Made by a program: the position numbers and the translations under genes
The notes under the pieces: model-generated
What the model saw: the letters and a program-made list of their open reading frames with translations, nothing else
What the model was told of the DNA's origin: nothing
Databases searched by the model: none
Shown here: positions 3,313 to 39,473 of the stretch, in pieces
How the letters are laid out: every line of letters begins with the position of its first letter
Position numbering within the stretch: position 1 is the stretch's first letter
Source: Candidatus Margulisiibacteriota bacterium
GTDB lineage: Bacteria; Margulisbacteria; Riflemargulisbacteria; GWF2-35-9; DYQY01
Assembly (NCBI GenBank): GCA_028706105.1
Contig: JAQWCF010000002.1
Location: 1-56,061, forward strand
Direction: 5' to 3'
DNA: 56,061 nt

Positions 3313-4407
<1,095 letters not shown>

Positions 4408-17100: not shown

Positions 17101-20100
17101 TTAATTGAAATATTCTCAGGCACAAAGTTGTATCAATTTTTAGTGGATGAGTTTAATAAAGATAGTCAGGGAATAGCAACAGTTGAAGAGTATTGTTTGA
17201 GTTATATTCAGAAGAAATTTGAGGCTAAATATTCAGAGATTGAAAGTTATTTAAAAGACGGAAAAGGAGATGGTTCTGCTATACAGATGTTAATTGAACA
17301 TTTTGCTGGTAGTGCTATAGATAGAAAGGTTTTAGGTCAAATTAAAGATGTTAAAATTGTTCCTAATCAATTATCAAAAAGTAATTATAGTGTTAACCCT
17401 GATAAATTAAATGAGCCTAAATATAGAGCTGCAATTCTGAATTTGGTATATCAAACACAAGTAAATAAAACTCAGGGTCATGGGTTTAGGCAAACAACAA
17501 ATGTTTTTAATCAGATCAATATTTATCAACTTAAAGAGATAATAAATATTATTTCTTCAGATGAAGATTTTTCTGAACTTATAAAGCCATTAAAAGAATT
17601 AGTTGCTACTTTAGAGAATACTGGTTGTGTTCTGATAAAGAGTGTAGCTAGTGGGTTTGAATATTATAAAGCTGATGGTTCTTTTGTTACAGTTGCGGCA
17701 ACACCGTTAATTGAATTAGTTAAAGGATTGGTTGATAGAAATATTTTGCAGGGCGTAGTGGAAACATCCAAGACTTTTACAGCTAAATTACAAAAATCAT
17801 TAGCAGCTGATAGAGATATTAAGGTGCAAACAAAGGTTATTAGTTTTGATAAGCAGTTTAATATTGATAGTTGGACAAGGATAAGGTTGCTGTATTTAAA
17901 GCAAACAAATATAGAAGCATATAATAATATAGTAGCTGCTTTAGCCAAAGTAGAAGATAACGATTTAAGTGATCCTAATGTTTTACGTTATTTGAGTTCC
18001 GTTTATATGAATCCTACTTTCTTGTTGTCTCAGAATAAGCCTGTACCAAGCGAAAATTTATTTATGCTTGATGCTGATTTTGCTCTTTGGCTAATAGATG
18101 TAATTCAAAGTGATAGTTCTGCTTTTTTGGGAGCAGATTTAATAGTTGACTTAGTTTTTGGGAGGAGGCAGACATTTACTCCTGATAAGAAAACTGTGTT
18201 GAATTATTCGCAGGGAGATATAGGGGAAGCCTTAACTGAAATCAGAAACAAGATTTTGGAAGGAAAAATTACTTTTAAAAATAACGAAACGATGCTTCTT
18301 GATGGTGACAGTCCTGAAATGAAAAAATTGAAAACATTAATGGCTGTATGGATTCATGGTGTAGATAATAACGCTATTCAGAAACTAGTTGATTTGAAAG
18401 ATTCTACTGCTGAACCACAAGTGGCTGATTTGCAGGATGCAAATAATTTATTTGGCTCATCAGCTGTGTCCTTTATTAATCAATACTTTGGACCAGTTCC
18501 AAGTTTGGGTAGTTGGTTAACATCAGGAGCATCAAAGGTTGCTGGTTTGCCAGAAGTGGGGATACTTACTTCAAATATTAAAGATGCATTTTCTGGTCTT
18601 ATTACAAATTCTGCATATAATAGCGACCGCTTAAAGAGCGAGGTGATTTATCATAATTTAATTTTATCAAATAATGAAATGAGTGATGAGTATGTTGATG
18701 TTTTTATTAATGGACTAAGAAGTTATATTAATCAAACATACTTTCATCCTTCAAGTGAGCTATCAAAAAAGGAAATAGAGGAATTACTGCAAGGGTGGGA
18801 ATCTCTGAAAGATGTTGAGCCTAAAGGAAACTATGTTATCACTCAGGAAAACTGCAAAAGTAATTTAAAGTATTTATATATTTTAAAATTAGCTGCGGTG
18901 GCATCATTTTTAACAATGAATGATGGACTTGGTCGTTCTCAGGAATTAGTTTTAGTTGATGGATACATGACAGGAGCGGAAAAGAAAGAGCCAGTTAGTG
19001 ATGGTGGCGGGTCTGCACTAGGTGGTTTAGCTTGGGATTTATTGAAAGGAAATAACCCAGCGTTTGTTTTTAGTGAAGGATATCAGTATGTAAGCGCAGT
19101 ATCTGAAGAGAAAAAAAAGGAAGGTCATGTAGCTTTAGGGGTAGGTGTTGGTGATGCTACTTTAAATTATGTTAGAACCCCTCTTGAGTTTATGAAGTTG
19201 AGTTGGTATTTTAAGTTTTCAAGACCTTTAGATATTTGGAAAAGTGTTATTTCTCAGGTGTCAGGAGAAAATAATGTTTTACATCAAAAAGAAATAGCAT
19301 CTCAAGTTGCATTGGTTACTGCACAGATAGATATAATACGGGATTTGCAGAAATATGGTGAATCGTATGGGTTAAGTGTTGCAGTAATAGGTGATGTAAC
19401 TAAATCTATTGTTGGTATGGAGAATGTTATTAAAACTATTAGAAATCTAACTTCTTTAAAAGATATTGAAAAGAAAAAGTTAGAAATTTTTGTTTTACTT
19501 TCTATGTATATTAATGAAGCAGGTGTTGCAAATAAAGATAGTTTGAAAACAGAATTGTTTGAGCAATTTAAAGGCATAAAAGAAATAACTGTATTGGATA
19601 GATATATAAAAGTAGTTAGCAAATTAATAATTATGAAAAAAGATGGACTTAGTTTAGATGATAGTAGTTATCTTTCAATGCTTAAAAATAGCGATGGGTT
19701 GTTGGTTTTAGAAGAAAAAATAAAAGAAAAATACCAAAAAAGTAGATGGGATTATTTAGAAGGAGCTTCGTTTGGAGGATATGAGGCTGATCATAGTCTT
19801 GGTGCTTTTCAATCTTTGGATGAAGACATTGATGACTTGATGGGGACTGTTTGGAAAAGGGTTGCTGACACTGCAGTTGAAGTAGCTACCATTCAGTTAG
19901 ATATTTATAATTTCACACATAGCTTCTATCAATTCTATCAGTACTTAGGCATATGGGAAGACATGTCAAACGCAGCTACCCCTAGTGATTGGGCTGCAGT
20001 TTGGATAAAGATTAATTTGGCTAATATGTATGTTTTGCCAAAGTCAGGACAAAAATTTAGTGATAGCTGGATGGGCAGGACAGTTGGCAGAGATGTAATT

Positions 20101-23100
20101 TTATGGAAGCCTGTTGGTTGGGTTGCTGATTCTGCAAAATTCCTTGGAGCCGATAGGATGAAAGGATTGCAATGGTTGTTTAAAGGCATTGATATGCTTA
20201 ACGAACAGGGTGCGTTATTAACATTAATGGAAGCAACCGGAGTTTCTGGCAAAGCGTCAGATAAGTGGGAGAATCTAACAAAAAAAGATGGTCAATATAA
20301 GTCAGGATATTTAGCACTGAGAGCCTTAGTCGATGTGGTAGGAACAATGAGTATTGTGGGAAATCGTGATTATGAAAAAGCACAGGTAACTGACCTGACA
20401 GACATGAGTAAATTCAGAGCAGCTAGATTAATATTTAATGGTAGTGTATTAAGAAGTTTGGGTGATACGGTTTTTAGTAAAGGAATAGATAGGCTTAATG
20501 CAAATGTCGTTTTGTATGCCCTAGATAAGTGGAAGCAAGAATTTATTGGCAATTACCCAAATGGCAAATTTAGGGACTATGTGAAGCAAATTTTTCATGA
20601 GTGTGCTGGGGATCCTGCTGTTGCAAGATATTTTGAAAGAATGAGTTATGATAGTTTTCAGGCAGAAACAGAGAAGTCTGTCACCGAAGTAACCATCAAA
20701 GCTGATGGTTCATTATCTTTTTATTGTGTATCTCCAGATGCTAAAAGAAATATTGATTTATCTAAATTGCAGGAAACATTAAAATTTAATGGTGTTTTGG
20801 ATGGAATTTCTGTTAAGAGTGTTTCTGAGGATGGAACAAGTATCAATCCAAAAGAAGTTAATATAGGTAAAATTATTATTGGGTCATCAATGGCAAATGA
20901 AAATAATGCTGTTTTTGTTTTAAGAAGCGATAATCCTTCGTTTAGTAAAGATAATTTAGAATTACATCTTTCAGTTGACTTGGCACGTGGATTAACATCA
21001 GGGGCTTCTTCATCTATGGCCTTTGAAAGATGTTTGAATGAGATAAAGTCTCGACCACTTCAGTTGGATGCAGGATTTAAAAGAAGTATTGCTAATTTTG
21101 GGACTGATGGAAATAGTGTTTCTAAAATGCAAGACTTTTATACGCTTGTAACAAACGATACTCTTATTGTAATAAATGAGGATGTTTTTAAGGCACTTAA
21201 CGGAAAGTTCTCTTTTCAAGAACTTTCAGTGTTTTTTAGGCTTATTAAAGAGCAACCAAATAATTGGAAAATGAATATTGATTCGGTCAATAATTATTTA
21301 GAGCAAGTTAGGTTTAGAGATGTTGTGCCTCCTGATTTTAGAAAGGCAGCTGATATAATTTTTGGTAAAGCAGAACAATTAGCAAGAGTTTTTTTAGAAC
21401 ATTCTGGAGGAATAAGAGGTTCTGTTTTTGATGAAAAATTTAATGAATTTTGGAAAAACAATGCTGAAGTTAAGTCAGCATTGGCATCGATTGGTAGTGA
21501 TTTAGATTCCTATCACGTTGATGGCGAAAAAAGAGAACGGCTAGAATCTTTCATCTCCGAAAAATCAAGAGACTATGCTAAAGGTGTTGTTCTTGCGAGA
21601 CAGTCACATGAAGACTTATGGTCTTTTATTGAGGGACAGAAAGCTTCCCTGAAGGAGAATGGAAATAGTGTTCTAAATCAGTTATTAGATAGTTGTAGAA
21701 ATATAGATGACTTTTATAAAGCTTGTAGTATTGGTGTAGAAGGGAAAGATTCGCGTAATAATCCTGACGCATATAAGGCAGCTCTTCAAATAATAATTGA
21801 TGCCCAAAGGGAAGATTGTGAAACAGCTTTTAATGCAGTAAAAGGAGCGAATGATGAAGAGGCAAAGAAGGCAGCAAAAGGGCAACCTCACAATAAAAGA
21901 GCAAGTATTGATGAATTCCAAAAAGCAAATGCTGATGGGAAACTAACTAGTAAGGTTTTGGGTATGTGGACTCTTTCTGTATTGAAGTCAGAAGGGTTTC
22001 GACCTATTGAAGGATCATTAGCAACATTAGCAATGCAAGCAAACAGTAAAGATATGTTTTTTAATATGAATGCTGGCGGAGGCAAGACTATTTTGATAAC
22101 AGGACTGGTCTTATTCCGTTATATGATGGGGTATCATGTGGTTGTAGGCGTTTCTAATGATGCAGATAAATCAGCTGGTGTTAAATCAACAACGAGAGTT
22201 TATGAAACTATGTTTGGTAAGCCTCCAGCTGTATATGAACGACCAATAGGAGCATATAATCCTGAGACGTTACGGGCTATGTTTGCAAAAAGTAGAGTGG
22301 TTTATGTGAACCATTCAGATTTTCTTTCTAGAGCATTGCAAGACATTATTAATCCAACAGAGAGAATTTTGCCAACCGATTCAAGCGATTCGATGGTGTA
22401 TATATTAGATGAAGCAGACAAAAATTTGTTAATAGATGGAACGAATCCTACCATTATGAGTACTTCAAATAATGAGATATTAAAAGGTATTGATAAGGAC
22501 CAGTATGTTGTGGCGGTAAGGGTAATGGATGCTTTTATTAAAAACAATGCTAAGAAAGAAGGCGAATTAGTTTTTAGAGTAGGAGACCAATTTTTTCTAA
22601 CAGAAAAGGGCACATTAGAATTTAAAAGAATGTTAGCTATTGATATTTTAAAAGTAAGTATGTCAAAAATCGTATTCTCTGATAATTTACCATCAGTTAG
22701 AGAAATTCAATCTAGAATAGATAAAATAAAGCTAGCAAGTAATGCCAGAGAAATAAGTTTACAGCTTAATTCTAGTGAAAACTTAATGTATGAGCGAGTG
22801 GCATTTATGGCAAACGATGTTTTAGACGTAACTAAAACTTTTATTTGTGGTGAACAGTATGATGTTGTTAAAGGGAAGGTGAAATTGTTAGACCAAGGAA
22901 TGAGAAGGTTTAATTGGAGTAGTGTACAACAGAAATATCATCAAATAGTAGAAGCATATCATTTGAGTGGATCTGGTCCGAGACGTAATGATGGTTCTAT
23001 TTCTCATATTTCAAGACCATCCTTTAGTAGTATAAGTTTAACCACACAGAAATTTCAGAAAGATGTTATTAATGCAATATTGGGTTTGTCAGGAACCAAT

Positions 23101-26100
23101 TTGGAGATGCATAGAGAGATAGAACGATTAATGATAGAACATATCCCTGCAAAGGACATTGCACCACAGACGCTTAAGTTCGCTCCGCAGATTTCGGTAA
23201 ATGGATTAGAAGCACAAAAACAGAATGTACTTTTTTTAGCTGCTAGCAAGATGGCAGAAGGAGCTCCTATTTTACTCCATATACCAAAGAAAAAGTCAGG
23301 AAAGTCAGGATTGGAGGCGGAACTAACCATACAAGTGTTTGAAGAGTATACTAAAGATTTTTTTGATTTTTTAGATAAGAAAATTAAGGATAATAATTAT
23401 TCGGACAAACAATTTGATGCTATTTATCAAAGATTAGGAGGTGGTGAGTATTTAGTTAAATATCAAGCCATTTTAGATTTTAATGCTTTAGTTGGTCGTT
23501 TTTTCGGATCCACTAAGTCAAGTTCAGGAATAGGCATTGATCATGTTTTTGAAGGAACAGCAGATGATCTTGAAAAACAAAGAATAGATTATTTTGGGGA
23601 TGGAACAATTAGGGTATTAATGAGTACAAATAGTAACAGGGCTGTTGATATCCAACCTACCTCTGAGTTTTTTAAAGAATCTTGGAAGAAAATGATTAGT
23701 GATAAAGCAAAGCCAGAAGCCAAAAAGAGACTTGAGGCATTGGCTAAGTATCTAAACATTGGGGTAGACGAATTAAAAGGATATAAGGCACATGATGCTC
23801 TTATACTATTGCGACGCAAATCTGGATATTCCAATATTGGCATGGTTGGTGTAATGACACAACTGAAAAGAGACAGTGTTGAATGGATACAAGAGATTTT
23901 TCGTTTAGGCCGAACACTAGGTTTAGGTAGGTCAGAAGGAGCAGTTTATGGCGTTACTAATATTTGGGATAATAATCTTTCAAAAAGACCTGAATTACAA
24001 GCATTAGTTCGAGATAATTGTTTTACTGAGGAGGGCATTTCAGCCTTAATGGATGTTCCTTTTTATCCTCTTAATTCTATGTTGCAGATAGATAATATAG
24101 GCAAGTATCTTGTGGCTATTCCAGAGGATAAAGAGGCGATAGATGCTATTACTAAATTTGCGTATGGTATATTAAAAGAATTTCATGATTTAAGTTTAAA
24201 ATCAGACTTGTCGGCGGTTGAAAAGAAACGGTTAAGCCAAATAAAGTCAAATTATCGCGGGCTTGTGTCTTTAACTAAGAATATACCTGAGTTGTTTGCA
24301 AAAAGAGAATACAGTTTACCTGGAAATTTAGCGGATATTACAGATGAAGGTTTAAGAATAGCAATTTCTGTTGGTATTTTCCGCGACATGACGGGTAACG
24401 AAGTAGGTTCGATTTGTTCTGAACTAGCAAAGAGCCATAACCCATCTAAGGGCAAGGAGTCTATAGATTGGAAAGCAGCAGAAGGCAGAATCTATAATTA
24501 TCGAGTAGCTACTGACCTAGTGTTAGTCGGGATTATTAAACAAAACGACGTTTCAGATTTTATTAAGGATGGCTTTGAGAATAATAAGTTTATTCATCTA
24601 AAACAAAGTGTTTCTATGTTTAATAAAGTTAGAGGTTCTTTAGAAAAAACTAATCGTGATAACATGGAGTCTTCAAAAGCTTCTCAAGGTAAAACATTAG
24701 AAAGGCAATCACCACTAAGATTGCTACAAGATCTTCTTGGTAAGTCTCAAGGTGATGGTAAACGTAGTTTTCGTTTGGGTTATAGGGCAACTGATATTGA
24801 ATATATTTCACGAGATTTTTCACAATTAAATCAAGTTAAGGATATCCCAACAATGTTGACAATGTTTTTTGAAAGAGCATTAGAAGTAAATTCAAAACAG
24901 TTTTGTGTATCACAGGGGATTAGCTCGTTAGATGAATTAATGGTTAAGATGATTACTAACAAATCAGTAAGAAGAAAGTATGAAAGTTATATTAATAGCA
25001 AAATGGGATTTAATGTTGAATATGTTAGTGGTGTTAGAGAGTGGGATATTTTTAAGTCAGGAGTATCAAAGAGTTTTTATGGTTTAGCATCAGACCCTAA
25101 AATGCCAAAAGATAGACAAGCAGCAGCAGCAACTCTTATTTCCCAACGTTTAGCATTAGTTAACGTTTATCTTTCTGAGGCAGAAAAGTATATTGAGCAT
25201 TTGACAGCTACTACGATGGTTATTGGCTCTGATGTCAATTATGAAAGTTTGTGGCAGAGCATGCAAGAAGGATTAATAGACAAAATGGCGATTGATATGT
25301 TTTCTGATGGTAGTAGGCCAAAAACCATCCTTAAAAAAACAGTAAAAAACGTAGCTGATTTCTTTTATTTTAAGTTTATTTATGATGTAGATTTAAAGGT
25401 GGAAAAACATAGGGCTGAACACCAGGAAGCGATAAATGAGGTTAATTATAAAAGCTGGAATAGACTTTCTGATACATTATTTGGATGGAAAGCATCTCGC
25501 GCATTAAAGGGGAATGATAATTATAAAAATAATCCAGAAGAAAAAGTACAATATCAGTTAAAAAATTTAATTCTTAGATGTAATAGGGAAAATAGAGACC
25601 CTTCTGATGATGAATTAAAACTTATTTTTGGTGAAAAGTTTAGTATAAGTGCTAATTATCTTCAGGCAAATGATTTTGGTGCAATAATGCCGCAAGACGT
25701 GTTAGCCAAGTTTGGTTTAAATCGAATAGTCAACTCTCAAGCAATAGCATTGTTTTTTGAACAATTTACGATAACATCTCAGGGATATTATTGGATAGAT
25801 GCTGAAAAGGTTAATGATTTTATTGCTTGGTTGGATAATTCAAAAACCGTTAAAGATGCAGAAACTATAAAGAAGTTTGAAACATTAGCTAATCTTCTTC
25901 TCCAAAAGAAACCAGTTAAGAGTAAAGGAGTGCCAGAAGGTACTTATATAGAATTAAGCGCAACTGACAAAAAATCATTACAAATTAAATTGGGAGAAAT
26001 AAGAGATAATCAACCAGATGCTTTAAAAGTCGAATATGAATATTTAAGACAAGAGGGGTACATCGATGCTCAGGGAAGAATCCTAAAGGGAACTGAGGTT

Positions 26101-29100
26101 ATAAGTAAAGATGAAAACATTACAGCAGCAACAAGGAACAAATTAACTACTGCTGTTGAAAAAATTACATCTACAATAAATCAAATAAATCAAAAGCTTA
26201 TTTCAGATGGTAATCCATCCGGAAAAAGTATTTTAATATATGATGGGTCTTATAAGTTTGCAGAAGTTATATCAGTAGATGAACAGAAAGATCATAGGGT
26301 TATTAGAATTGGTAGAGTTTGGGGTGGAGGGCAAACAGATTATTTGGGGTTAATTTATCATAAGCAAGGTAATAGATTTGCCTTTGGAAGCGAAACAAGC
26401 TCAAAGTACGAGATTATTGTTGCAGAGAGTAAGCTACAGGAAAGTTTTATGGACCTTTTTGAAAAGGCGATTTCTCAGAAAAGTGACAATAACGGTGATC
26501 ATGCAAGGATGTTTTTGCAGTCTATTGATATATCAATAGAAAAAATGAAAGGCTTAACGGGGTTTCCTTCTTTTTTTAATTATAAGGTTCTTGGTCAGAG
26601 GTTAGGGATAAAAAGTGAAGATGAACAAATAAAAAAATATCAGGACTGGAGAAGGTTGGGGTATGTCGATAGTAATGGGAAGTTAACAGAGAAGTTTATG
26701 TATTTGACAAAAGAAGATCTCTCTACGGAACAAGAGAGAGAGTTTCAGTCTAAGGCATTAACATTGTTTGATTTGTCAGGGAAAGCATTACAAATGCTTT
26801 CTGAATTTGTAAGAATACATGAAACCAGCCATATGCGTGACTTTAAAGATAATATGCTTGCAGACATGCCAGAAGGTATAAGGAAAGATCCTTTTGTTGA
26901 TATGTTGTTAGAATTTAGTGCTGATTTTGGTAAAGATGGAATCATTGAAAAAATAATAGCTATGGATGGAAATAGAGCTCAATCAAAAGCTATTTTTCAG
27001 TATTTGCTTTTTAGATTATCAGCTTCCCAAGACCCTACTGATAAAGAAATGTATCAAGTATTAAAGAGTTGTGTGGGAAGTAAAGGAGAGCTTGATATCC
27101 CTAAATTAAATACATTATCAAAGAGAATAACCAAGCACGTTAACAGTACTTTTGAAGCGTTAAAACAAAATAGTAGTGAGTATAACCTGGCTAATTCTGT
27201 TAGAGATCAACAATCTCGTTTTAGTGTTTTTCTAGGGGAAATATCATTTGTCAAAAAATCTGAAGTATCTGGTGCTGACAGTAAATCTCCTGAAGGCGTA
27301 TCCTACATGAAAGCAACAGCTTTGCCAGAAAAGGGTACACCTGCGCAAAGAAACCAATCTGACACTCAGCCAGATGCTACTAAATATAAAGATGTGGAGT
27401 ATATATCAACGCCTCATACTGAAGGCGATTACAAGCGAGCTGTTCTTGCAATTTCAGATTTGGGCCAAGAGAATCCAAATCAGGTTTTTGAGGTTAAGAG
27501 CTCAACAAAAGTTCAGATAATATTTACTGCTGAAGATGCAAAAACAGTGCAAACAGAAAGATTAGTTATCGAAGGTTTTGGTGATGAGCTTGGTAAGGCT
27601 ATTGCAACAGGAAGACAAGATTTAAGCAAAAAGCAACAAATGAATCTATATTCGTATATTTTACAACAAATTAGAAACACAACTGAACTTTCAGATGAGT
27701 CTGCTAAACAACAAGCAAATTCTATGTTGAAAAGTTCTTTAGATAGTATTCAGCCGGGATTAGGTGACAAGTTTGAGAAAGCATATCCTTCTTTTAAAAA
27801 TTGTTTTGATGCTTATTCAAGGATTATTAGTGCAACCCAACAGCAGCTGGACAACGGGAGTGATAAACAAAAGGTTAATCTTAGGAAATCTCCAAGTGGT
27901 GTTGTGATTTCTATGGTTGATAGGGCTATCAATGACAGCAACGCAACAAAAGATGGTGGCAGTTTAACTAGCGAACAACCTTTTTATGTTATTAGAGGGT
28001 CATCCGCAGAAGTTATAGTTAGGATGGGTTTAATGCCTATGTTTTTTGGTGGAGAAAAGTATGCTGGTAAAGTAGGTAGTGTTGAGTTCCAGCATCAGTC
28101 TTGGGGTGCGAATGCTACTTATCAGGACGAACAGCTGTTAATGAGAATGGAAGATGAAGATGCTTTATCCTTAAAGGGTAAGGGGTTTGGTCTAATGATG
28201 TTTGCAGCTGACGCAGTTGATGAGGGGCAGTTGGCAGGTAAGCCAATGGGCTTTTCTGCTGTTATACAAAAAGATAATAATGGGAAAATGCACTTTTTAG
28301 ATGGACAGATAGTCTCTAAATTACAAGATGATATTTATTCAAAAGTACGTGGTGGATCTGCCACATCGATTACAGATGAGTTAATAGAGAAAGCTGTTAA
28401 AGATACTAATATCCCTAAAGAGCAAAAGAGTGCCTATTATGAGTTTATGAAGACAACATTAGATAGAGATGTTGTTTTTGTTAGACGTGCTTTTGATGAG
28501 CTTGGATGGGTTATGACTGAGGACATGATGAAAAATTATTTTAGTTCAAGAGGTGACAGTTTAGGTGATATTTTTAGAAATGACGGGACAATGGATCCTC
28601 AGAAGTTAAAAGAACATGCAGAAGGTTTAAAAAACACTTTGCTTGCTGGGATGACAGAAAGTCAAAAAAGCAAATTAAAGGGTCAAGGATTAACTATTAA
28701 TCAACAGCTTGAAAGAATGCTTTATCCTGGTGAACGTTCAAGTAGAATAGCAACAGATGTTTTAGAGAATAGTACTCAATTTCTAATGGTACTGGCTGTA
28801 GCCGCAGTAATACAATTTACTAATGCAAAAATGAAAAATGAAAAATTTGATATAGAGTCTGTAGTAAATTTGGCTTTTAATGAATTAACAGTTACTGCTG
28901 CTTTAATGAAAAGAATGATGATAGAACGAGGTCTTGGAGTTTTGTACCATGGAGAAGGTGTGACTTCCATGACGATATCTGTAATGGTTTCTAGACTTGA
29001 TACTTATTGTAGGGCCAGGACAGAAGCAATTCATCAAATGGCAGAGTTTAATTTTGTAAGACAAACAGAAAGAGAACAACAGAACAGCTTTAATGATTTG

Positions 29101-32100
29101 TTGAACACTAATGTTGAACAAGAAGTAGCTTCTGTGCAAGTCGTAGGCAGTGATGTGCAGAGTAACTTAGGTATTTCTTTTACCTACAAAGATAATGTGC
29201 TATCAGGGGAAGGCGTAAATCAGTTATTACAAAACTTACAGTATCCTGGTGATTATTTTATAACCGATAGCACTTTCGATGTGTTAAATAACTTATCTTT
29301 TAAGGCACTAGCTGTAGAGTATTTTAAAAATACTGGATGCTTGGTTTTGGGCCCAATGAGTGGTGGTTCTGACGTTAAATATTTTGTTTCAGAAAAATTT
29401 ATAAATATGATGAATTATCACCCTGATGAAATTATGTCTGGGTTGGTGAAATTAATGAAAGATTTTGTAGTAGGTATGGATAAAGAAAAAACTATTATAA
29501 AAATTAAAGAGTTGGGCGTGGATGTTGAAGCTATGGGTTTGCAAGATAAGAACGAAACAGAGTTGCGTCAACTATTAGTACAAATCTTGGTTTCATCTAT
29601 AGTTCGTAAAATGAAAGGATCCTTTGATGTAAGATATGCCTTAAAAGAACAACTAAAGAGAGTTTGGGTGGAGAGTATTATTCGTGATGGGTACATTAAA
29701 GAATATAAGTTAGCTGATAGCGACATTACGGAAAAAGGTCAATATAAACCGTCTTTTCTTCAGGAGATGCATTCTGTTTTAGAGAGCAAGGGTCAAGATC
29801 TTTTGAGTAGCATGCTTAGTGACGTCAAGAAAGAGTATCCAGATTTTGACTCGATACAGTCTCATTATTTTAGTAGTTTAGTTCTTTTATATGATGAAAG
29901 GGATATGCAAATATTTAATGAGTTTCTTCTTCAGAATAAGATTGAATTAACCTCGGAACAATTGGATAAGTTGAAAATCATTAAAGATTCTTATTCAGAC
30001 TTAATGTCTAAATTAGGGACTATTTTGAAAAGTTATAAAAACAAGAACTGGGATAATCGGGAAATGGATATGTTGTTGTTTGAAATTGACCAAGCATTAG
30101 TGTCAACATTTCCAAAACTTAGTGAGTTTATAAAGTTTGCTGATTTGGTGGAGTTAACTAGGGCTGAATTATTGAGAGATAGAATGGTAAGTGTTGATTT
30201 TAATAAAGCGTTCCCTTATTTGTCAGTTAATAGTAACGAGTTTTCTGCGTTAACAGTTAAATATGTTAATGATGCTTTAAATAAATCTATAACAGAAAAC
30301 AGAGTTGGTGTTTCTGATGTTTATAGCTTTATGTTTTCTGATAATGATAAATTAAAACCTAATTATTCTGTTATTTTTGAAGCTATTGAAGTAGACGGGA
30401 AAATGTGTTTTAAGCTGAAGGACGGAGTAGATGAAAAGAAACTTAATAAGTTTTTGCAGGAACAACAAAACAATTTTTTTGACTCAAGACAGTTTGTTTT
30501 ATTACGAGATTTAGCCATCACTTCTTTATCTGTAAGTAATTTAGAAAAAGTACAAACAATTCTTCAAGGAACAGAAAAGGATTACGAGTCTTATTCTAAA
30601 GTTCTATATAATAATAAAGATTTATTGGGAGATGTTTTTGGGTTTTATTCAACGGAAGATCTTTTTGTTAGTCAGTTTAAGTTTGAAGTTGCAGGGGATA
30701 AGGCTTCAAAGGGATTGATGGAAAACACTAAAGCTAAGGATGGGATGCCAGCCCCAAAAAGACATTTGATTGTTTTTAGAGAACAAGTTTCTGATTATGC
30801 AAATGACAATAAAATTCCTTTACTAGAACAAGCAGAGGCTGGAAATCCAGGTCTTGGTACTGCGAAGGGAACAGCCGGAGGCATTATAGGTCTTGCAACA
30901 TTTAAATATGCTCATGGATTCCTTGAAGGACGTGCGATTAGAAAATGGGGTCAATATGATAAAGCAAATTATAATAATAAGTTTACTAGGATTTTCAATA
31001 AAGAAGGTCTTAGAATGCCAAAAATATGTGGGCATACGGCTAAAACACATTTTGCTCCAATGGGACTTGCTTCTTTGGCATATATTATGGTGAGTCAACA
31101 TTTTTTTAACATAGCCTATGAAAAAAGTGGTGCTGTTAGATTTGTTGTTGATAACTCTATCGATCCATTTTATGAATCTCTCGCTCCACTAAAATTTTTG
31201 ACGCCAAGTATTTGGCTTAGGTATCTTAATGATGCTCAACGTAATTGGTCAGGTTTTGACCCTATTGGGTTTTCAGGTTTAAAGAGTTCAGATTCCTCAT
31301 TTAATAGGACGGTTGGCACTGTTGGTAGTTTGGCTGTGGATGTTGGGTTAATGAAATTGGATGTGGAAATGGCGAAACTTGTTCACAGAAGAGCTGTGAA
31401 AGCTGGATGGGCTCAGGCGCCTCTTGACGCGGATAATTTACTGACACCTTATCAACGAGCAATAAATGAAGGAGCTGAAGATTTAATTAGTCGTAGAGGA
31501 GTTATGATTAATAATTCCGACCTTAGTAAGGTTAAGTTAGCTAGAGTTCCAAGGGGAGTGAAGTCAGTAGTAGATTCTTTAAGTCCGCATTGTCAAAGCA
31601 TAAGTTCTATCGAAGGTTCAGATGACCTATTAGTAAAACTTAAGGACGGTAAAATGCAAAGGCTTACCTATAAACAAGCGGAGAAGTTATCAGCGGATTT
31701 ATCAAGAAGAGCAACAGGTCTTTCAGTGACAATGAATGCAAGGGATATTGTCAGAGAAGCTTCTTCAGGGATTTTTCTTGATTTTAAACCTTTAGCTGGG
31801 GATATGGTTGAATTTACTACTGTAGGTGGTAAGAAGTTAGTTGTTGGTAAGGCATCTATGGACCAAGCACTTAAAGACGGAAAGGGTGATTTGTATAAGT
31901 TTTTGTTTACTGATGATGCAACTGGGCAATTTAAAATAAGAGGTAATAGGCTAATGCAGATTTATGCTGCATTATCTGTAGTAAATATTCTTATTAATGG
32001 CGCGCGTGATGGTATCAGTATGGATGATGTTGCTCAGGCGTTAGTGACTGCTGGCAAACAGACAGGTTCCGTTGCGGCAATTGGTTTACTTGAGGGTGTA

Positions 32101-35100
32101 GCAACTAACGCCGGAGTGATTAATTTAACTATTAGAGGGGCTGTTGTTAAGATTCCACTAGCTGGACCTTACGCAGCTGCCGCTTATGAGTGTTTGAGTG
32201 TGTTAATTGAAAATTGGGATGAAGTTAAATCAGGAGGAATTTCTTCCAGTATAGCTATTGAGGAGGCGGTTGAAAAGGCTCTTGTGGTTGGTGGAGCGGT
32301 GTTCGTTGGAACAGTTACTGCTAAGGCAGTTTCTGTTGTGATTGCTTCAATGTTAGCAGAAACGAGTGCTGGTGCTGCCGTGTCGGGCGCACTACCGGTT
32401 GCTCTTTTGACAGTTGCAACAGCTGCTCTTGTATATTATGCACCAAAAGCTTATGACTGGGGAATTGAAACAACAGGTATAAGAGAAGACAGGGACGAGG
32501 TTAGAATGTTAGCCAATTTCTCAAAGGAGGCAGGTGTTACATTGGAAATAACTAATTCTAATGTTCATTCGTGGGGACCTTTTTATTGGAGTAATTTTTT
32601 TCAGGACACAAAAAATGGATATTATGATAATGAAAACCTACAAGAGTTAATGGAGAATATATATCCTGGGTATTCTTCATTAAAAGCTTCCCTTGGGCGC
32701 GATAATCCTGCTTTTGTTATAGAGAATGGCTCTGGGCCTACAAGAAGGGCTCCTAGTATTTTTGGTAAATTACATGAGTATAGCAACTTAGCTTATGAAT
32801 TAAATATTAGTGTTAATAGTCTTTACGATATGAATCCGAATTTATTTATTCATATTTGTCAAACTTTAGAACAGAATAAAGATAAGATTAAAGGGAAGAT
32901 GGTTAATGTTTCCATTGAGAGGGTGGGTTATCAAGATCAACCTGATTTTATGGTTAATTATGTAGTTAAGTTAACGATAGATTATCCTAAGGATGAAATT
33001 AGATTAACAATGGGGGCTCAGGAAAAACCGACAGAGATTATTTCTCCATGTTCAATAAGATTACATGGTAAAGGTATTAGTTTATCTGAAGGGATTAATG
33101 TTTTTTCCGCAGTAAACACTGGCAAGCTAGTTGTTGATGGACAGGTTGTGGATTCATTGAAGGTTGTGTCAACAGATAGAACTTGGAAGGATACTCTTAT
33201 TGATGAAGGATTGGGTCGATTTTTACTGGAAACATTTATTGTGAAAGGTGATATTAATTATGAAGGATTAAAATATAATTCTGAATCACAAGGTTATGAG
33301 GAGTGGTCAAATCAAATTCTTAAAGATAATAAAGCATTAATTGCTGGTATGGTACAAAAATATCTTGTAACAGGCGAATTGCCTATAAATGATCCAAAAT
33401 ATAAAAACATTATAATTGCAATAGCTACAGAAATTCTAGAAGAGGATATAAAAAGAAATCAAAACAAAGCAGATTCAGCTTTGTTGAGGTTAACTCAAGC
33501 CCAAAGGAATAAAGCTTTGTATGAATGGAGAACGTTAGATTCTGAAGGCAAGAGGATTTCCTCTCTTAGTGATTTGAGTGGCAAAGAACGGACTGGTTAT
33601 TTAGATTTTTTAAAAGCATATAGATATTTGAGTTTAGGGTTTATTAATCCAGAAGCAATAGCAACAATTGTTGGTTGTGATATTCAAGAAGCAAAGTTGA
33701 TTGTTAGTGTGCTTAAGCAGTCCGAGGTTCTTAAAGGTATTGATAATAATCAAAATGATCTCTATAGAATTGATTATAAAAAAATAACCTTAGGTGAAGA
33801 TGAGCTAAAAGAATTTATTGATGTTTTGAAGAATAGTATTACAGACGAAACATTTATTGGTTTTGGTGTAGATGTAAAAAATGAGAATATTTTAAGGATA
33901 GCTGCAGGTATCGAAACAGTAATAAATTCAGCACTTAGTTTGTCAGAATATGTTTATTTTACTAGACAGCCTCGTGATCGTATTCGTAAAAAAGAATTTG
34001 CTTTAAGTGGTGATGATTTTAGAAATATTTATATGCTTTATAAGAATGGGGCTTTTAATAAAAGAGATTCTGGTTTTCTTCAGTTTCATCCTGGCGAATA
34101 TACCATTGTTAATAAGCCAACCCACTTAAGGCAAGTTTTCCCTTTTGATTTATTGTCCACTAATTTTTTTGCCGATAATCTTAGTGTAAGCGAAAGGCTA
34201 ATGCGTCATTCGAAGAGTTTTAATCAATCCAAGTTTTATAAATATGTGTATGATAATTATGGGAGTTTGCAGGCTAATGACTATGATAAGTATATGAGGG
34301 CTAGAGGGTTTATTAGTATTAGTAATGACTCCGAAGTTCGTAGTGCAACATTAGACTATTTAATGGTTGCAAATTATATTACCAATGAATCTTCACATTT
34401 TTTTGAATCACAGGCTAGATTGGATTATAAGAAAACTTATGCCTTTAGGTGCTTGCCTGATGAACAAATCGCTGAGTCAATAAAAGAATTAGATATTACT
34501 GCTAGGGAGGATATTGAAGATGCTTTTAGGCTTTGGCAATACGATAGTTTTTTTCAAGAACATAAAGACAGTGTGCTTTTTAAAGTAGATATGAGTCCAT
34601 CTGCTTTGTTTATAAGGAATGATTATCAGAGCAAGAAGCAATTAAATATTAGTTTGTTTATTTTCAGAGTGATAAGAGGTGATTTTTCGCAGTCACAACT
34701 GAGTAGGATTGTTGCAAGCAGAGGGAAATTTGATCAAATTTTAAAGCAAATATCTATGAGTGACATCAAAAAATTAAACCTAATCTTTACAAAGCTTAGT
34801 GACCCAAACCTTGCATCTATTGATAGGATGAATGCTTTAGATTATATAATGGAGAATAGTAAGGCTATTAAAGAGTTATACGATTTTATGTTTGACAATG
34901 GTTCTTTGTATTATGGCTGGGAGAATGTAGCATTGGTTGAGAATACTGGTTATGATTCAATAGAGAAGTCAGCAGGGGATGATGTTAAAGATTTCCAGAA
35001 TTTTATTAAGACGATAGCTTTGTTTAAAGGAGTAGCTGGCATTCCTTCTTTGTATTCTAGGAGTAAATTTAGAACATATAATTTTAACTGGATGAATAAT

Positions 35101-35867: not shown

Positions 35868-36245
35868 ATGCCAGTAGAAAATAATATGAAAGTAACAACC
35901 CCAGCGAAGTTTGATAGTACAAAAATGGAAAAGGTAGCCCCTTCTCCAGCTCAATTAGAGAATCTTACTGCACAAAAGGTAGGACTTGGTAACAGCCTTA
36001 AAAGTATGGCGACAGTTGGTCCACAGCTAGGCGAAGATGGCGTAGAACTTGCGGCAATTGTTAATGGTGGGGCAGTAAAAGTAGCATCTACAGCTGTTAA
36101 AAAAGAAGCAGGACAAACAATCGTTTTTGATAAAGCAGCGGCTCCAGCAGAAATTGCGGCAACTGATCCAGCAGATAAAGCAGCAGATGCATCAAAATTA
36201 GATTCAAAAGCTGTTAAGCCAGGAGAAGTAGAACAAGCAGATTAA
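35868..36245 (+). CDS. small Ala/Lys/Pro-rich, probably disordered protein (125 aa)
   Basis: ORF track. A canonical SD (ataGGAGGaaataaaATG) precedes it and a strong hairpin follows it. I recognise no family. Confidence 0.65.
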   Translation: MPVENNMKVTTPAKFDSTKMEKVAPSPAQLENLTAQKVGLGNSLKSMATVGPQLGEDGVELAAIVNGGAVKVASTAVKKEAGQTIVFDKAAAPAEIAATDPADKAADASKLDSKAVKPGEVEQAD

Positions 36246-36314: not shown

Positions 36315-38000
36315 ATGGACATTATGGGGGAAAGTAGTCTTGGTGTTTTAGAAATAGAGAAAAAATATTCAGAAAAATTTTCAAGTGTACTAAATCAACT
36401 AATATCAGCGGAATCAGTTATTTTGCTTTCTGATTTTTTGAAAGCAAAAACTTCAATTAAAAATACAGATAAAATAGTTGGAGATATCGTAGGCTTGATT
36501 GAATCAACTATTTATGGGTATATAGAATATTATGCTGTGATGCAGTATTTATATATGGATAAAACAGGAGAGTGGACTGAAGCTGGAGAAGATCGTGTTA
36601 AAAGTTCATTTTTTGCTGTTTTAAATAGTTTTCCAGCAGATAAAGATTTGAATTATTCGGACTATTCTTTTTCTCAAGATAAAATAAATCAATTAGCAGT
36701 TTTATATAAAGTAGATAGTTTAAATAAGGAAGAACTTTCTAATAGAATAAAATCACCAACGTTCGATATTTTGGGGTTGTCTTTTAGCTTTACTGAGACT
36801 GCAAAACTGAACAAATTGTTAGCTATTGTAAGCAGTCAAAGACGAGTTATTATGGGGTTGAGTGGAAGTTACATTTCAATGATTTTTGCATTAGCCACAA
36901 CAGTTAAGTATCATGAATATGAGATACATATTTTGTATAAAGAAGAAATCCGTACCCCTAATGCAGTAAATTATATAGTTGCTGTTATTGATCAAAATCA
37001 GATTGCAATTCGAAGAGAGGTTTGTGAATATATATTTTACAAAAAATGGCTTCCAGTTGTAGAAGATGAACCATTTTTTTTGAGTTTCATGAACGGCAAT
37101 CTTGAGAATCAAGTAGCTGAAGCAATTAAAAAACAAGTAATGCAGGCTTATTCTGTTAATAATAAAGAAGAATTATTAGAAGTTAAGGATGATTTTATAA
37201 ATAAAATGATGGAGAATTTTTCCTATCATGAGGTGTCTCATGATATTTTAGATGATTTTAATTTAACTAAAGAGGAATCATCTATGGTAACGGCTATTTC
37301 AGTTCAAGAAGAAAATATCTTGACTGTTATGACTGAGGTGTTAACTGAATGGATGCCTGGTTCGCTTCATTTGAAGGGACCAATGAAAAATATAGTTGAT
37401 ACAGCAGTTAAAAATGGTAATAATTCAAAAGCACGGCAACTTTTGTTAACGTATATGAGTGATGGTTGGTTTTTAGATACAGACACGGAATTTATGCATT
37501 CCTATACATATCTTATGTTTGCTCCTTTATTGAAGTGTTTGAAGTTAGATTCCGAGATAGATTTTATTGAATTATATGGTGAATTAAATAGTATTTTTGA
37601 TTTTTTTCTTACTTGGTATAGAAATACAATTGCGGATGTGTTGGTAAAGTTGAAAAAAATGGAATATGTTGATACAGATAAAGAAATCCTTGATTATGAC
37701 TCTTTCAATAAAAGAGTTGAAAAATGCATGAGAATATATAATGAACTTATTAATAAAAATCTTTCTGATGATATTATAATAAGCCAGAATTGGATTAATT
37801 TTTTCAGTCAAATGAAGTCGCTGTCTCCACATAATTTTGAAAGTATTAGTTCGTTGATTTCTGATAAAGAGCAACAATTGTATAAAGATTTAATTTTAAA
37901 GTTTGGTGGTGAAGAGTCTGCCTTAAAGTATGGAGATGATATTCGTTCATTTGTTTTAGATGGAATGATTAGTCGCGGATTTAGTATTCCTTTGGAGTAG
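36315..38000 (+). CDS. hypothetical protein with HExxH (HEVSH) zincin-like motif; paralogue of a module in the giant ORF
   Basis: 561 aa. HEVSH lies at aa 305-309, VLTEW at about aa 342-346 and NGNNSKARQLLL at aa 367-378. These mirror HETSH / MLLEF / DGNRAQSKAIFQYLL in the giant protein. Confidence 0.7.
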   Translation: MDIMGESSLGVLEIEKKYSEKFSSVLNQLISAESVILLSDFLKAKTSIKNTDKIVGDIVGLIESTIYGYIEYYAVMQYLYMDKTGEWTEAGEDRVKSSFFAVLNSFPADKDLNYSDYSFSQDKINQLAVLYKVDSLNKEELSNRIKSPTFDILGLSFSFTETAKLNKLLAIVSSQRRVIMGLSGSYISMIFALATTVKYHEYEIHILYKEEIRTPNAVNYIVAVIDQNQIAIRREVCEYIFYKKWLPVVEDEPFFLSFMNGNLENQVAEAIKKQVMQAYSVNNKEELLEVKDDFINKMMENFSYHEVSHDILDDFNLTKEESSMVTAISVQEENILTVMTEVLTEWMPGSLHLKGPMKNIVDTAVKNGNNSKARQLLLTYMSDGWFLDTDTEFMHSYTYLMFAPLLKCLKLDSEIDFIELYGELNSIFDFFLTWYRNTIADVLVKLKKMEYVDTDKEILDYDSFNKRVEKCMRIYNELINKNLSDDIIISQNWINFFSQMKSLSPHNFESISSLISDKEQQLYKDLILKFGGEESALKYGDDIRSFVLDGMISRGFSIPLE

Positions 38001-38003
38001 GAA

Positions 38004-39473
38004 ATGAATGCTAAAATTATTTCTTTAGCATATCCTTCTGGAATTGGTTCGCTTTTGGATCAAGAACTTAAGCCAATAATCAATTTTTTCCAAGAACAAA
38101 TATCTATAGGTAATAGTGTATTTCAGCAAAGAATTGATGAATTGCAAAAAATGCTTAAAGGTTTAAGAAGATGCGATAATCTTATATTTCGCGACTTTTT
38201 ATCTACAGTAGATATGTTTGATGATAGACAGGAAATTTCCTTGCTTAGTATTAAAAGAGGATTGAGTATAGTTGAGTTCAGACAATACATATCAGATTTT
38301 GCTAATTTGTCTTCGATAGATATTGATTCTTGGGTTAATGATTTTTGTATAACTCAAGATATTGTAAATTCTGATGGTAATGTCTACAAAGCATGTACTT
38401 TAAGAAGTGATTTAAGTGAGGATGATTTAAGTAGAGCAGATACTCTGATACCAGAGTTATATAATTACTTATTAAACATAATAGAAGAGACCGAGGATTA
38501 TTTGTATTATAGGGAAGATATTAATGAATCTAAGATAAACATCGACACAGATGTGTTTAAAGCTTTAATATTATCAGAACCGGTTAAGCCCGTTTTCGGT
38601 CAGAAAGCTATATTTTCTTGGAATCATACTCATCCTACTAGGAGTCAAGAAGTTCAAAGTAGATATTCCAAAAGAAGTGGTTATTTTTTTTCTGTTGCTG
38701 ATTTGAAAGTTGTTAATGAAGTTGAAAGAAATGCAGAAGTGTTTTCTGCTTATGGAGCTTCTTTTGTTGAGAGGGATAACTATTACGAAGATATCAATGG
38801 TAACAAAGCAAAGCTTACAGTTAGTCCGCAATATATTAGCTATGTCGCTCGTCGTTTAGCATTTTTGGATGCATACAGATATATTTCTAAAGTAAGTAAA
38901 TTATCATCAAATGTGTTGATTAGTGTTGCTTTAGAGATAGCAAATTATTATGTTGGAAATAGAAAACAAGAGGATGTACAGGGTTTATTAGAAAAGTATA
39001 ATTTAGAGCCAGAACTTATTGAAAAATTTAAGAAGAAAGTTTTTGATAGTGGCGAAACCTCAGAGTTGAATGATTTTTTTGGTATGCATGCTAATTATCC
39101 TGAAGTAGCGGCATTAAAGGAAGGCCATGTTTCTTATTTTGTTAATAGGTCAATGATTAATAGAATGATGGACCCAAAACGAACAGAACTTGGCGATATG
39201 AAGTATCATGAAGCGATAGAGTTTATTAAGCTTCGTTCATCAAAAACACTAAGACTTATCCTTTGTGCGAAATATGATTTGTCAGACCTTTTCATTAGAG
39301 ACAGAAAGTTCCTCGGAAATAGAATAGTTAGTGTTTCAGCTAAGCAAACGTATATGCCTTTGCTTAAGGAACTATGGAACTCAAAGAATCTTACTGAAGC
39401 GAGAGAAGCTAGGGATAAGATTTTGAAGGCCTTTTATGAGCTTGATAAATCAGGCGAGTTGTACGAAGACTAA
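38004..39473 (+). CDS. hypothetical protein (489 aa) with a weak JAMM-like HTHP...SVAD motif
   Basis: ORF track. It starts 3 nt after the stop of the 561-aa gene. WNHTHP lies at aa 206-211 and SVAD at aa 230-233. The spacing is longer than in canonical JAMM proteins. Confidence 0.65.
   Translation: MNAKIISLAYPSGIGSLLDQELKPIINFFQEQISIGNSVFQQRIDELQKMLKGLRRCDNLIFRDFLSTVDMFDDRQEISLLSIKRGLSIVEFRQYISDFANLSSIDIDSWVNDFCITQDIVNSDGNVYKACTLRSDLSEDDLSRADTLIPELYNYLLNIIEETEDYLYYREDINESKINIDTDVFKALILSEPVKPVFGQKAIFSWNHTHPTRSQEVQSRYSKRSGYFFSVADLKVVNEVERNAEVFSAYGASFVERDNYYEDINGNKAKLTVSPQYISYVARRLAFLDAYRYISKVSKLSSNVLISVALEIANYYVGNRKQEDVQGLLEKYNLEPELIEKFKKKVFDSGETSELNDFFGMHANYPEVAALKEGHVSYFVNRSMINRMMDPKRTELGDMKYHEAIEFIKLRSSKTLRLILCAKYDLSDLFIRDRKFLGNRIVSVSAKQTYMPLLKELWNSKNLTEAREARDKILKAFYELDKSGELYED

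What the first reader, a model, noticed from the sequence alone, without database searches (positions are those of the whole stretch)
26800..27030. HExxH zincin-like module in the giant protein has a free-standing paralogue in the 561-aa gene (37227-37450)
The giant protein reads ...FVRIHETSHMRDF...(26 aa)...DMLLEFSADFG...(about 18 aa)...DGNRAQSKAIFQYLLFRL. Here HETSH is aa 4228-4232 (nt 26818-26832) and the E of LLEF is aa 4259 (nt 26911-26913). The 561-aa protein reads ...FSYHEVSHDIL...(35 aa)...TEVLTEWMPGS...(about 22 aa)...NGNNSKARQLLLTYM, with HEVSH at aa 305-309 (nt 37227-37241) and E345. Both therefore show the same three-part order: HE[TV]SH, then a hydrophobic-L-x-E-[FW] helix, then a GNxxSKA..LL helix. 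HExxH followed by a downstream Glu is the gluzincin arrangement. A single HExxH in a 7185-aa protein could occur by chance. The shared triad in a neighbouring gene argues for a real homologous domain present twice in the locus, which would fit a processing protease plus its cis copy, or an effector plus an immunity or maturation pairing.
Basis: partly seen in the sequence, partly recalled or inferred. Interest (0 to 1): 0.7.

Follow-up and report, generated by a model that had tools for sequence, protein, structure and literature searches.

The report
Shared metal-site domain in giant protein and neighbour
A 7185-residue protein of a Margulisbacteria genome and the 561-residue protein two genes downstream share an ancient, previously uncurated metal-binding enzyme domain whose predicted fold resembles dipeptidyl peptidase III, which gives one of the few functional handles on these fast-evolving giant proteins.

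Summary
BLASTP, phmmer and a shallow profile comparison found no similarity between the two proteins. Deeper profiles did. Ten giant-protein modules compared with 125 members of the p561 family gave hhalign probability 97%, E 5.7e-11, while reversed and shuffled controls gave E 0.1-0.7. The strand-rich part, which carries no motif, also aligns on its own in the same register (E 2.3e-5). The shared signature is HExxH followed 27-32 residues later by E-x-x-A-D/E-[FW]. The giant's E4259 therefore pairs with p561 E341, not E345. The third motif, GNxxSKA, is not conserved and is out of register. An AlphaFold model of the p561 domain (pLDDT 86) matches only Caldithrix DPP III (family M49; HEISH and EECKAD) and PolE, an iron/pterin oxidase with a DPP III-like fold. 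No Pfam or NCBIfam model matches. The giant's module resembles "typical" family members more than its own neighbour, so the duplication is old. These typical members sit in a second Margulisbacteria locus, between pheST and mreB. I read it as a new, phylum-restricted DPP III-like metalloenzyme family, probably a zinc peptidase. Catalysis and substrate are untested.

The parts
14137..35694 (+). Giant ORF, 7185 aa
   Evidence: ORF list. A giant gene of 5313-7185 aa lies upstream of the p561 orthologue in the Margulisbacteria loci that reach upstream, except L013, whose upstream gene is about 2355 aa.
21955..25389 (+). SecA-like DEAD ATPase region of the giant (aa 2607-3751). Walker A AGGGKT is at nt 22072-22089 and LDEADK at nt 22405-22422.
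   Evidence: Weak Pfam SecA_DEAD hit. It is 25.7% identical to the L005 giant over 1206 aligned columns. Motifs read directly from the sequence. This class of giant protein is described in bioRxiv 10.1101/2023.11.21.568195.
26173..27126 (+). HExxH module of the giant (aa 4013-4330): a strand-rich part, a variable insert, the HExxH helix and the Glu helix
   Evidence: The four-sequence module HMM (A2) places it at aa 4013-4320. It is conserved in 10 giant orthologues. hhalign against the p561 family: probability 97.1%, E 5.7e-11.
26818..26832 (+). HETSH (H4228, E4229, H4232), the proposed metal ligands and catalytic Glu
   Evidence: HEx[GSA]H is present in 9 of 10 orthologues and HEKGGH in the tenth.
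26911..26928 (+). EFSADF (E4259...D4263, F4264), the proposed third metal ligand on the Glu helix
   Evidence: The Glu is invariant in 10 of 10 orthologues and AD[FY] occurs in 7 of 10. It aligns with p561 E341-W346.
32065..32448 (+). Hydrophobic cluster of the giant (aa 5977-6104), the likely membrane anchor
   Evidence: Kyte-Doolittle scan. This is a prediction only.
35868..36245 (+). Small low-complexity ORF (125 aa) between the giant and p561
   Evidence: A small ORF occupies this position in the annotated loci. Its sequence is conserved only among close relatives.
36315..38000 (+). p561, the free-standing family member
   Evidence: 10 close homologues. 309 clusters at 50% identity match the family profile.
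36744..37577 (+). Region of p561 homologous to the giant's module (aa 144-421)
   Evidence: hhalign mapping. AlphaFold model of aa 140-450: pLDDT 86, pTM 0.85. The top Foldseek hit is DPP III, 6eom.
37227..37241 (+). HEVSH (H305, E306, H309)
   Evidence: Conserved as H in 124, E in 124 and H in 123 of 125 family members.
37335..37352 (+). EVLTEW (E341...E345, W346). The family consensus is E-x-L-A-D-[FW].
   Evidence: E341 is conserved in 123 of 125 members, and position 345 is D or E in all 125.
38004..39473 (+). p489, a syntenic partner gene that is not related to the domain
   Evidence: Follows p561 in 12 of the other Margulisbacteria loci. hhalign against the p561 family gives E 0.45.

Best explanation
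The giant protein (aa about 4013-4330) and p561 (aa about 144-421) each carry one copy of the same ancient domain. The domain has a strand-rich half followed by a long helix bearing HExxH. A second helix, 27-32 residues later, bears E-x-x-A-D/E-[FW].

By analogy with dipeptidyl peptidase III (M49: HEISH/HEXXGH plus EEC(K/R)A(D/E)), the two His and the downstream Glu would bind a metal, most likely zinc. The Glu of HExxH would act as the general base for hydrolysis of a peptide bond.

p561 would be the soluble cytoplasmic form. The giant's copy lies between its SecA-like ATPase and its membrane anchor, and would act in cis on a polypeptide handled by, or forming part of, the giant.

Shown: the homology, the conservation of the motifs and the similarity of the predicted fold. 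Inferred: metal binding, peptidase chemistry, substrate and topology.
For: Homology between the two segments:
- hhalign of the giant-module alignment against the family gives E 1.3e-7 with 4 sequences and 5.7e-11 with 10.
- Reversed and shuffled controls give E 0.1-0.7.
- The motif-free strand-rich half alone aligns in the same register at E 2.3e-5.
- An HMM of the giant modules hits 61 of 125 family members at E<1e-3, best 2.7e-9. It hits three tandem paralogues in L020 at E 1e-10 to 1.5e-5.

Conservation:
- H, E, H and E are kept in 123-124 of 125 family members, and the next acidic position in 125 of 125.
- All 10 giant orthologues keep the site although the rest of the giant diverges beyond BLAST detection.

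Fold:
- The domain model has pLDDT 86.
- Its only Foldseek hits with probability above 0.2 are CaDPP III 6eom (E 5.4e-3, probability 1.00, TMq 0.46) and PolE 9j3g (E 0.024, probability 0.98).

Parallels with DPP III:
- CaDPP III is 558 aa, with HEISH and EECKAD in which the second Glu binds zinc (PMC5805324).
- One giant orthologue has HEKGGH, which fits the M49 hexapeptide form HEXXGH.
Against: - No sequence-level match to Peptidase_M49 or any other curated family.
- A profile search of PDB sequences finds only a weak fragilysin match at the HExxH helix (E 0.065).
- The Foldseek E-values do not reach 0.001, and the full-length model found nothing.
- The second-best structural match is an iron/pterin oxidase, not a peptidase.
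- The family's two invariant residues, E207 and R230 (P0001 numbering), are not conserved in the giants, so the two copies may not share a substrate.
- I could not inspect model coordinates, so the His-His-Glu geometry is unverified.
Confidence: 0.55

Rival explanations
1. The domain is an iron(II)-dependent oxidase or oxygenase built on the DPP III-like scaffold. Comparable enzymes are PolE (DUF6421, iron/pterin) and the alpha-ketoglutarate-HExxH peptide hydroxylases. It might modify the adjacent small ORF product or the giant itself.
For: PolE (9j3g) is the second Foldseek hit (E 0.024, probability 0.98). PolE uses an HE/DxxH...E triad to bind iron on a DPP III-like fold, and HExxH oxygenases that act on peptides exist (PMC12614342). 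A small ORF precedes the family genes in the annotated loci. Invariant R230 and near-invariant K241 could bind a co-substrate carboxylate; this last point is inference.
Against: The His-to-Glu spacing is 27-32 residues, against 21-23 in DUF6421. No DUF6421 match appears in any Pfam scan. ExxAD matches the M49 second motif. The small ORFs are long, low in complexity and poorly conserved, unlike typical precursor peptides.
Confidence: 0.2
2. The metal site is retained for binding or structure only. The domain would be a pseudo-enzyme that recognises a peptide or a partner protein, with the giant and p561 competing for or sharing that ligand.
For: An inactivated copy (YYELTD in place of HExxH) sits at the C-terminus of a TIR-NACHT-TPR protein, the usual position of a sensor domain. 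The giants do not keep the family's invariant E207 and R230.
Against: The general-base Glu of HExxH is kept in 124 of 125 family members and in 10 of 10 giants despite extreme divergence elsewhere. That pattern is the one expected for catalysis.
Confidence: 0.12
3. The resemblance is a chance recurrence of a short motif in two unrelated proteins.
For: BLASTP and phmmer find nothing. hhalign with only 10 close p561 sequences gives E 0.33. The window pair is only 13% identical.
Against: The profile comparison reaches E 5.7e-11 with clean controls. The motif-free half aligns independently, in the same order and register. The giant-module HMM finds 61 family members.
Confidence: 0.03
4. This is a recent in-locus duplication that created a matched pair, such as a protease with a cis copy or an effector with an immunity protein.
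For: The genes are adjacent, and the order giant, small ORF, p561, p489 is conserved across Margulisbacteria.
Against: The giant-module HMM scores the adjacent p561 clade lowest (E 0.085-46) and distant typical members highest. Typical members form their own tandem arrays at a different locus. The phylogenies of the giant and p561 are discordant.
Confidence: 0.08

Closest known systems
Dipeptidyl peptidase III, MEROPS family M49, especially the short pentapeptide-motif form from Caldithrix abyssi (PDB 6EOM)
   Same: It is the best structural match to the domain model. Both proteins are about 558 aa. Both have HE[IV]SH-type pentapeptide motifs, and one giant has the hexapeptide form. Both have a downstream E-x-x-A-D in which the Glu is the third zinc ligand. 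The His-to-Glu spacing is about 29 in CaDPP III, against 27 and 32 here.
   Different: There is no detectable sequence-profile match to Peptidase_M49. The first Glu of the EE pair is absent. TMq is only 0.46. The M49 catalytic His was not looked for. The family has its own invariant residues (E207, R230, Y377xSDxWF). One copy is embedded in a 7185-aa protein.
PolE / DUF6421, an iron- and pterin-dependent L-Ile desaturase (PDB 9J3G)
   Same: It is the second structural match. It has a DPP III-like fold with an HE/DxxH...E metal triad.
   Different: The spacing is 21-23 residues in DUF6421, against 27-32 here. DUF6421 is mainly actinobacterial and found in biosynthetic clusters. There is no Pfam DUF6421 hit.
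Giant SecA_DEAD-containing membrane proteins of Omnitrophota and other phyla (West-Roberts et al., bioRxiv 2023)
   Same: The host protein has a divergent SecA-like DEAD ATPase, a transmembrane cluster, extreme length and rapid divergence. Margulisbacteria are listed among the phyla enriched in such genes.
   Different: In the passages I retrieved by keyword search, that study reports C39-type peptidase and glycan-active domains in these proteins. It does not mention this HExxH module or its free-standing paralogue family.
Pfam DUF6866 (PF21739/PF21740), function unknown
   Same: 10 of 84 family members give weak hits to DUF6866_N, on the strand-rich region where I could see the hit (best E 0.0016).
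   Different: All hits are below the curated threshold. Nothing is known about DUF6866 in the searched literature.

Membership tests
M49 dipeptidyl peptidase III | First zinc motif, HEXXGH or HEXXH | tested here: met
   HExxH is present in 122 of 125 family members and 9 of 10 giants; the L008 giant has HEKGGH.
M49 dipeptidyl peptidase III | Second motif EEXR(K)AE(D), with the second Glu as the zinc ligand | tested here: inconclusive
   E-x-x-A-D/E is conserved, but the first Glu of the pair is absent. Its role as a ligand is untested.
M49 dipeptidyl peptidase III | Two-lobe DPP III fold | tested here: inconclusive
   6eom is the top Foldseek hit, but at E 5.4e-3 and TMq 0.46. The full-length model gave no hit.
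M49 dipeptidyl peptidase III | Match to the curated family profile (Pfam Peptidase_M49) | tested here: not met
   No hit in any Pfam scan of p561, the giant or more than 100 family members.
M49 dipeptidyl peptidase III | Zinc-dependent release of N-terminal dipeptides | not testable with these tools
   Needs biochemistry.
Gluzincins (clan MA(E), thermolysin-like) | HExxH on a helix, plus a Glu on a following helix | tested here: met
   In the model, HExxH lies in helix 288-313 and E338 in helix 332-342, P0001 numbering. Conservation is shown.
Gluzincins (clan MA(E), thermolysin-like) | Thermolysin-type catalytic domain fold | tested here: not met
   No clan MA structure appears among the Foldseek hits listed for either model, apart from one aminopeptidase N chain at E 3.7 and TM 0.09. 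The only sequence hints are sub-threshold: Peptidase_M48 at E 0.048 and fragilysin at E 0.065.
DUF6421 / PolE iron-pterin oxidases | HE/DxxH-x(21-23)-E motif and a match to the family profile | tested here: not met
   The spacing is 27 in the giant and 32 in 94 of 121 family members. There is no Pfam hit. Only the fold is similar.
Giant SecA_DEAD membrane proteins | SecA-like DEAD ATPase plus transmembrane segments in a protein longer than 5000 aa | tested here: met
   SecA_DEAD hit at E 4e-4, below the curated cut-off. Precomputed SecA_DEAD hits are on record for four orthologous giants, and a faint SecA_PP_bind hit for L008. Walker A and DEAD motifs are intact, and there is a hydrophobic cluster at aa 5977-6104.

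The most novel reading that the evidence does not exclude
The giant is a self-contained, membrane-anchored translocase-peptidase. Its SecA-like motor threads a polypeptide, either its own distal part or a client such as the adjacent small ORF product. The DPP III-like HExxH module downstream of the motor then cuts or trims that polypeptide. This logic parallels FtsH and the peptidase-containing ABC exporters, but is assembled from different parts. p561 would be the soluble paralogue acting on the released products.
Probability: 0.15. Interest if true: 0.75.

Novelty: new variant of a known kind. Interest (0 to 1): 0.55.

Why it matters
Giant bacterial proteins with SecA-like domains have no known function and evolve too fast for ordinary annotation. 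In this lineage, the SecA-like motor and this metal-site module were the only parts BLASTP still detected in the window's most divergent comparisons, and the module was the best hit against the closest genome. The module is therefore a concrete target for mutagenesis and biochemistry.

The work also defines a family of at least 309 sequence clusters that is absent from Pfam and NCBIfam. Every member whose genomic context I resolved comes from Margulisbacteria. This extends the DPP III-like fold to a new group, in which zinc peptidase and iron oxidase chemistry both remain open.

Tried and rejected
- BLASTP and phmmer of p561 against the giant found nothing.
- hhalign with only 4 giant and 10 close p561 sequences gave E 0.33. 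The signal appeared only with the 125-sequence family profile.
- The search for homologous proteins with three giant segments returned nothing, not even the query itself, and one attempt timed out. The giants seem to be missing from that index.
- Two alignments had no stretch conserved enough to search with.
- The search for related loci with the SecA-like region found no relatives in the genome or metagenome collections.
- Pfam and NCBIfam scans of p561, p489, p1087 and the giant gave no family for the module.
- Foldseek with the full-length p561 model found nothing below E 0.07. The viral structure library gave nothing.
- PDB sequence-profile searches gave only weak fragilysin matches at the HExxH helix.
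- p489 as a degenerate paralogue was rejected (E 0.45).
- p1087, which has a lone HELPH, was not supported as a third copy (E 0.18).
- Other 600-residue windows of the giant score no better than noise against the family profile.
- I could not obtain model coordinates to measure the His-His-Glu geometry.

Full report
**1. The observation**

The window is a 34% GC contig. A source names its p561 protein as coming from a Candidatus Margulisbacteria genome. The giant ORF (14137-35694, 7185 aa) reads FVRIHETSHMRDF, with HETSH at aa 4228-4232 (nt 26818-26832), and LLEFSADFG, with E4259 at nt 26911. The 561-aa ORF (36315-38000) reads YHEVSHD at aa 305-309 (nt 37227-37241) and TEVLTEWMP.

Histidine is rare in these proteins. 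Only 0.04 HExxH are expected in the giant and 0.007 in p561, and about 0.27 across all 21 long ORFs of the window. Three are observed, in three neighbouring genes: p1087, the giant and p561. Shuffled sequences rarely carry HExxH followed by an E..[AST][DE][FWY] motif: 2 of 3000 for the giant and 1 of 20000 for p561.

**2. The direct test fails**

BLASTP and phmmer between p561 and the giant find nothing; the HExxH regions are not even reported as a pair above noise. Pfam and NCBIfam have no model for p561, p489, p1087 or the module. The giant gives only a weak SecA_DEAD hit at aa 2637-2805.

**3. Each motif is conserved in its own family**

p561 has 10 close homologues, in which H305, E306, H309, E341, E345, W346 and P348 are invariant, while GNNSKA is not. 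A profile search of 1.84 billion representative proteins found 309 clusters, most about 560 aa long. In 125 of them the counts are:
- H 124, E 124 and H 123 of 125 for the HExxH motif.
- E341 in 123 of 125.
- Position 344 is A, T or S in 123 of 125, and position 345 is D (105) or E (20).
- Position 346 is mostly F or W.

The family signature is therefore HExGH...E-x-L-A-D-[FW]-x-P, most often with 32 residues between the second His and the Glu.

A giant gene of 5313-7185 aa lies upstream of the p561 orthologue in the Margulisbacteria loci that reach upstream, except L013, where the upstream gene is about 2355 aa. In the ten giants whose module lay within the fetched DNA, the only HExxH in about 3000 residues sits in the same module, followed by E..AD[FY]. 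One giant, L008, has HEKGGH instead.

The giants otherwise diverge extremely fast. In the genome whose p561 is 81% identical to the window's, the C-terminal 3142 aa of the giant match the window's only at this module (27%) and weakly around the membrane region.

**4. The two families are homologous**

With a shallow p561 profile, hhalign gives E 0.33. With the 125-sequence profile:
- The 4-sequence giant-module alignment gives probability 94.1%, E 1.3e-7.
- The 10-sequence alignment gives probability 97.1%, E 5.7e-11 over 251 columns.
- Reversed or column-shuffled controls score 14-21, E 0.1-0.7.

Split tests show two independent, collinear signals. The strand-rich N-terminal half, which has no motif, aligns to the same family columns at E 2.3e-5. 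The C-terminal half aligns at E 3.3e-6, and that signal disappears when the two motifs are masked.

A plain HMM of the ten giant modules hits 61 of 125 family members at E<1e-3, best 2.7e-9, against a best of 0.01 for reversed sequences. It also hits three tandem paralogues in locus L020 at E 1e-10 to 1.5e-5.

The residue map for the window pair is H4228-H305, E4229-E306, H4232-H309, E4259-E341, D4263-E345 and F4264-W346, with 29 of 218 aligned pairs identical. The GNxxSKA strings are 3-4 residues out of register.

**5. What the domain is**

The full-length AlphaFold model of p561 (pLDDT 85.5) found no PDB match below E 0.07. A domain-only model of aa 140-450, built with 22 sequences (pLDDT 86, pTM 0.85), gave two hits that stand clear of the noise:
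- Caldithrix abyssi DPP III (6eom): E 5.4e-3, probability 1.00, TMq 0.46.
- SmPolE (9j3g): E 0.024, probability 0.98, TMq 0.41.
- Every other hit has E of about 0.9 or more and probability below 0.2.

CaDPP III is a 558-aa M49 zinc exopeptidase. It has the unusual pentapeptide HEISH and the motif EECKAD, whose second Glu binds zinc (PMC5805324). That is the same HExxH...ExxAD logic, with similar spacing and overall length. The HEKGGH variant in one giant fits the M49 hexapeptide form.

PolE belongs to DUF6421. It is an iron- and pterin-dependent L-Ile desaturase with a DPP III-like fold and an HE/DxxH-x(21-23)-E triad (PMC12614342).

No sequence profile links the family to M49 or DUF6421. The only sub-threshold hints are:
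- DUF6866_N in 10 of 84 members, on the strand-rich region in the one match I could inspect.
- Peptidase_M48 across the HExxH-to-Glu region in one member.
- Fragilysin at the HExxH helix.

I therefore file it as a new family with a DPP III-like fold and metal site, not as a member of M49.

**6. Context and evolution**

Typical family members (HExGH...EFLADF) sit in a second conserved locus: mutS, pheT and pheS on one strand, then a small ORF and one to three tandem paralogues on the other, followed by mreB, maf and a SPOR-domain gene. One such contig is from a Marinamargulisbacteria single-cell genome.

The giant's module scores best against these typical members and worst against its own neighbour clade. 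The two copies in the window are therefore old paralogues, and p561 is the more derived one.

p489 always follows p561 but is unrelated to it. A small, low-complexity ORF precedes the family genes in the annotated loci, but it is poorly conserved.

In the giant, the module lies between the SecA-like ATPase (Walker A at aa 2646, the LDEADK motif containing DEAD at aa 2757) and the hydrophobic cluster at aa 5977-6104. p561 has no signal sequence. I infer that both copies are cytoplasmic.

**7. Mechanism**

The most likely reading (about 0.55) is a metal-dependent hydrolase, probably a zinc peptidase. H, H and the downstream E would be the ligands, and the Glu of HExxH the general base. The giant's copy would act in cis on a polypeptide handled by its SecA-like motor or on the giant itself.

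The rivals are:
- An iron-dependent oxidase on the same scaffold (about 0.2).
- A non-catalytic binding module (about 0.12). This is suggested by an inactivated copy at the C-terminus of a TIR-NACHT-TPR protein.
- Chance (about 0.03).

**8. Novelty**

The host protein belongs to the described class of giant SecA_DEAD membrane proteins, in which Margulisbacteria are known to be enriched. The module, its family and the link to the DPP III fold are absent from the curated libraries searched here. They are also not mentioned in the passages of those two papers that I retrieved by keyword.

Noticed in passing
window 10755-14018 (HELPH at nt 11670-11684, aa 306-310): The 1087-aa gene just upstream of the giant also has a single HExxH, where 0.003 are expected. 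All three HExxH motifs among the window's 21 long ORFs therefore lie in this gene cluster. hhalign against the p561 family is not significant (E 0.18), and I did not obtain orthologues.
   Followed up: partly
window 14137-35694 compared with L001 1-9430 and L012 1-9345: The giant and p561 have discordant histories. The p561 of L001 is 81% identical to the window's, yet the L001 giant is barely alignable to the window's. That same L001 giant is 50% identical over 3138 aligned columns to the L012 giant, whose p561 is only 38% identical to the window's. This suggests that giant-gene types are exchanged or replaced between lineages.
   Followed up: partly
L018 7013-11662 (protein P0016, 1541 aa): This protein has a TIR domain, a NACHT/NPHP3-type NTPase and TPR repeats, and ends in a p561-like domain whose HExxH is replaced by YYELTD. 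It looks like an NLR-type defence protein using an inactivated copy of the domain, perhaps as a sensor.
   Followed up: no
L020 7614-13434; L021 10001-13347; L023 10001-13365: Margulisbacteria have a second conserved locus with one to three tandem paralogues of the family. It lies between pheST-mutS and mreB-maf-SPOR, and a small ORF stands at the head of each array, with a second one inside the L020 array.
   Followed up: partly
L008, giant residues about 340-690 of the fetched C-terminal part: This giant orthologue has HEKGGH, which fits the hexapeptide HEXXGH typical of M49 peptidases, in place of HExxH. Its downstream motif is EQQGDF. It rests on a single sequence, and I did not check for sequencing error.
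   Followed up: no
window 35868-36245: A 125-aa ORF rich in Ala, Val, Lys and Gly lies between the giant and p561. A gene of this kind holds the same position in the annotated loci examined, but its sequence is conserved only among close relatives (47-57% identity over the C-terminal 44-58 residues).
   Followed up: partly
L020 (GCA_042576685.1, protein P0040): The source labels this record 'Thermoproteota archaeon'. Its gene order (mutS, pheST, family genes, mreB, maf, SPOR) is bacterial and matches that of the Marinamargulisbacteria single-cell genome in L023. The label is probably a binning or taxonomy error.
   Followed up: partly
window 21955-25389: The giant's ATPase has motifs very close to those of SecA: NMNAGGGKT, and YILDEADKNLLIDGTNPTIMS, which resembles the SecA motif DEVDSILIDEARTPLIIS as I recall it from memory. 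BLASTP detects this region against only one of the seven giant fragments compared with the window (L005, 25.7%), and there it is the strongest match.
   Followed up: partly
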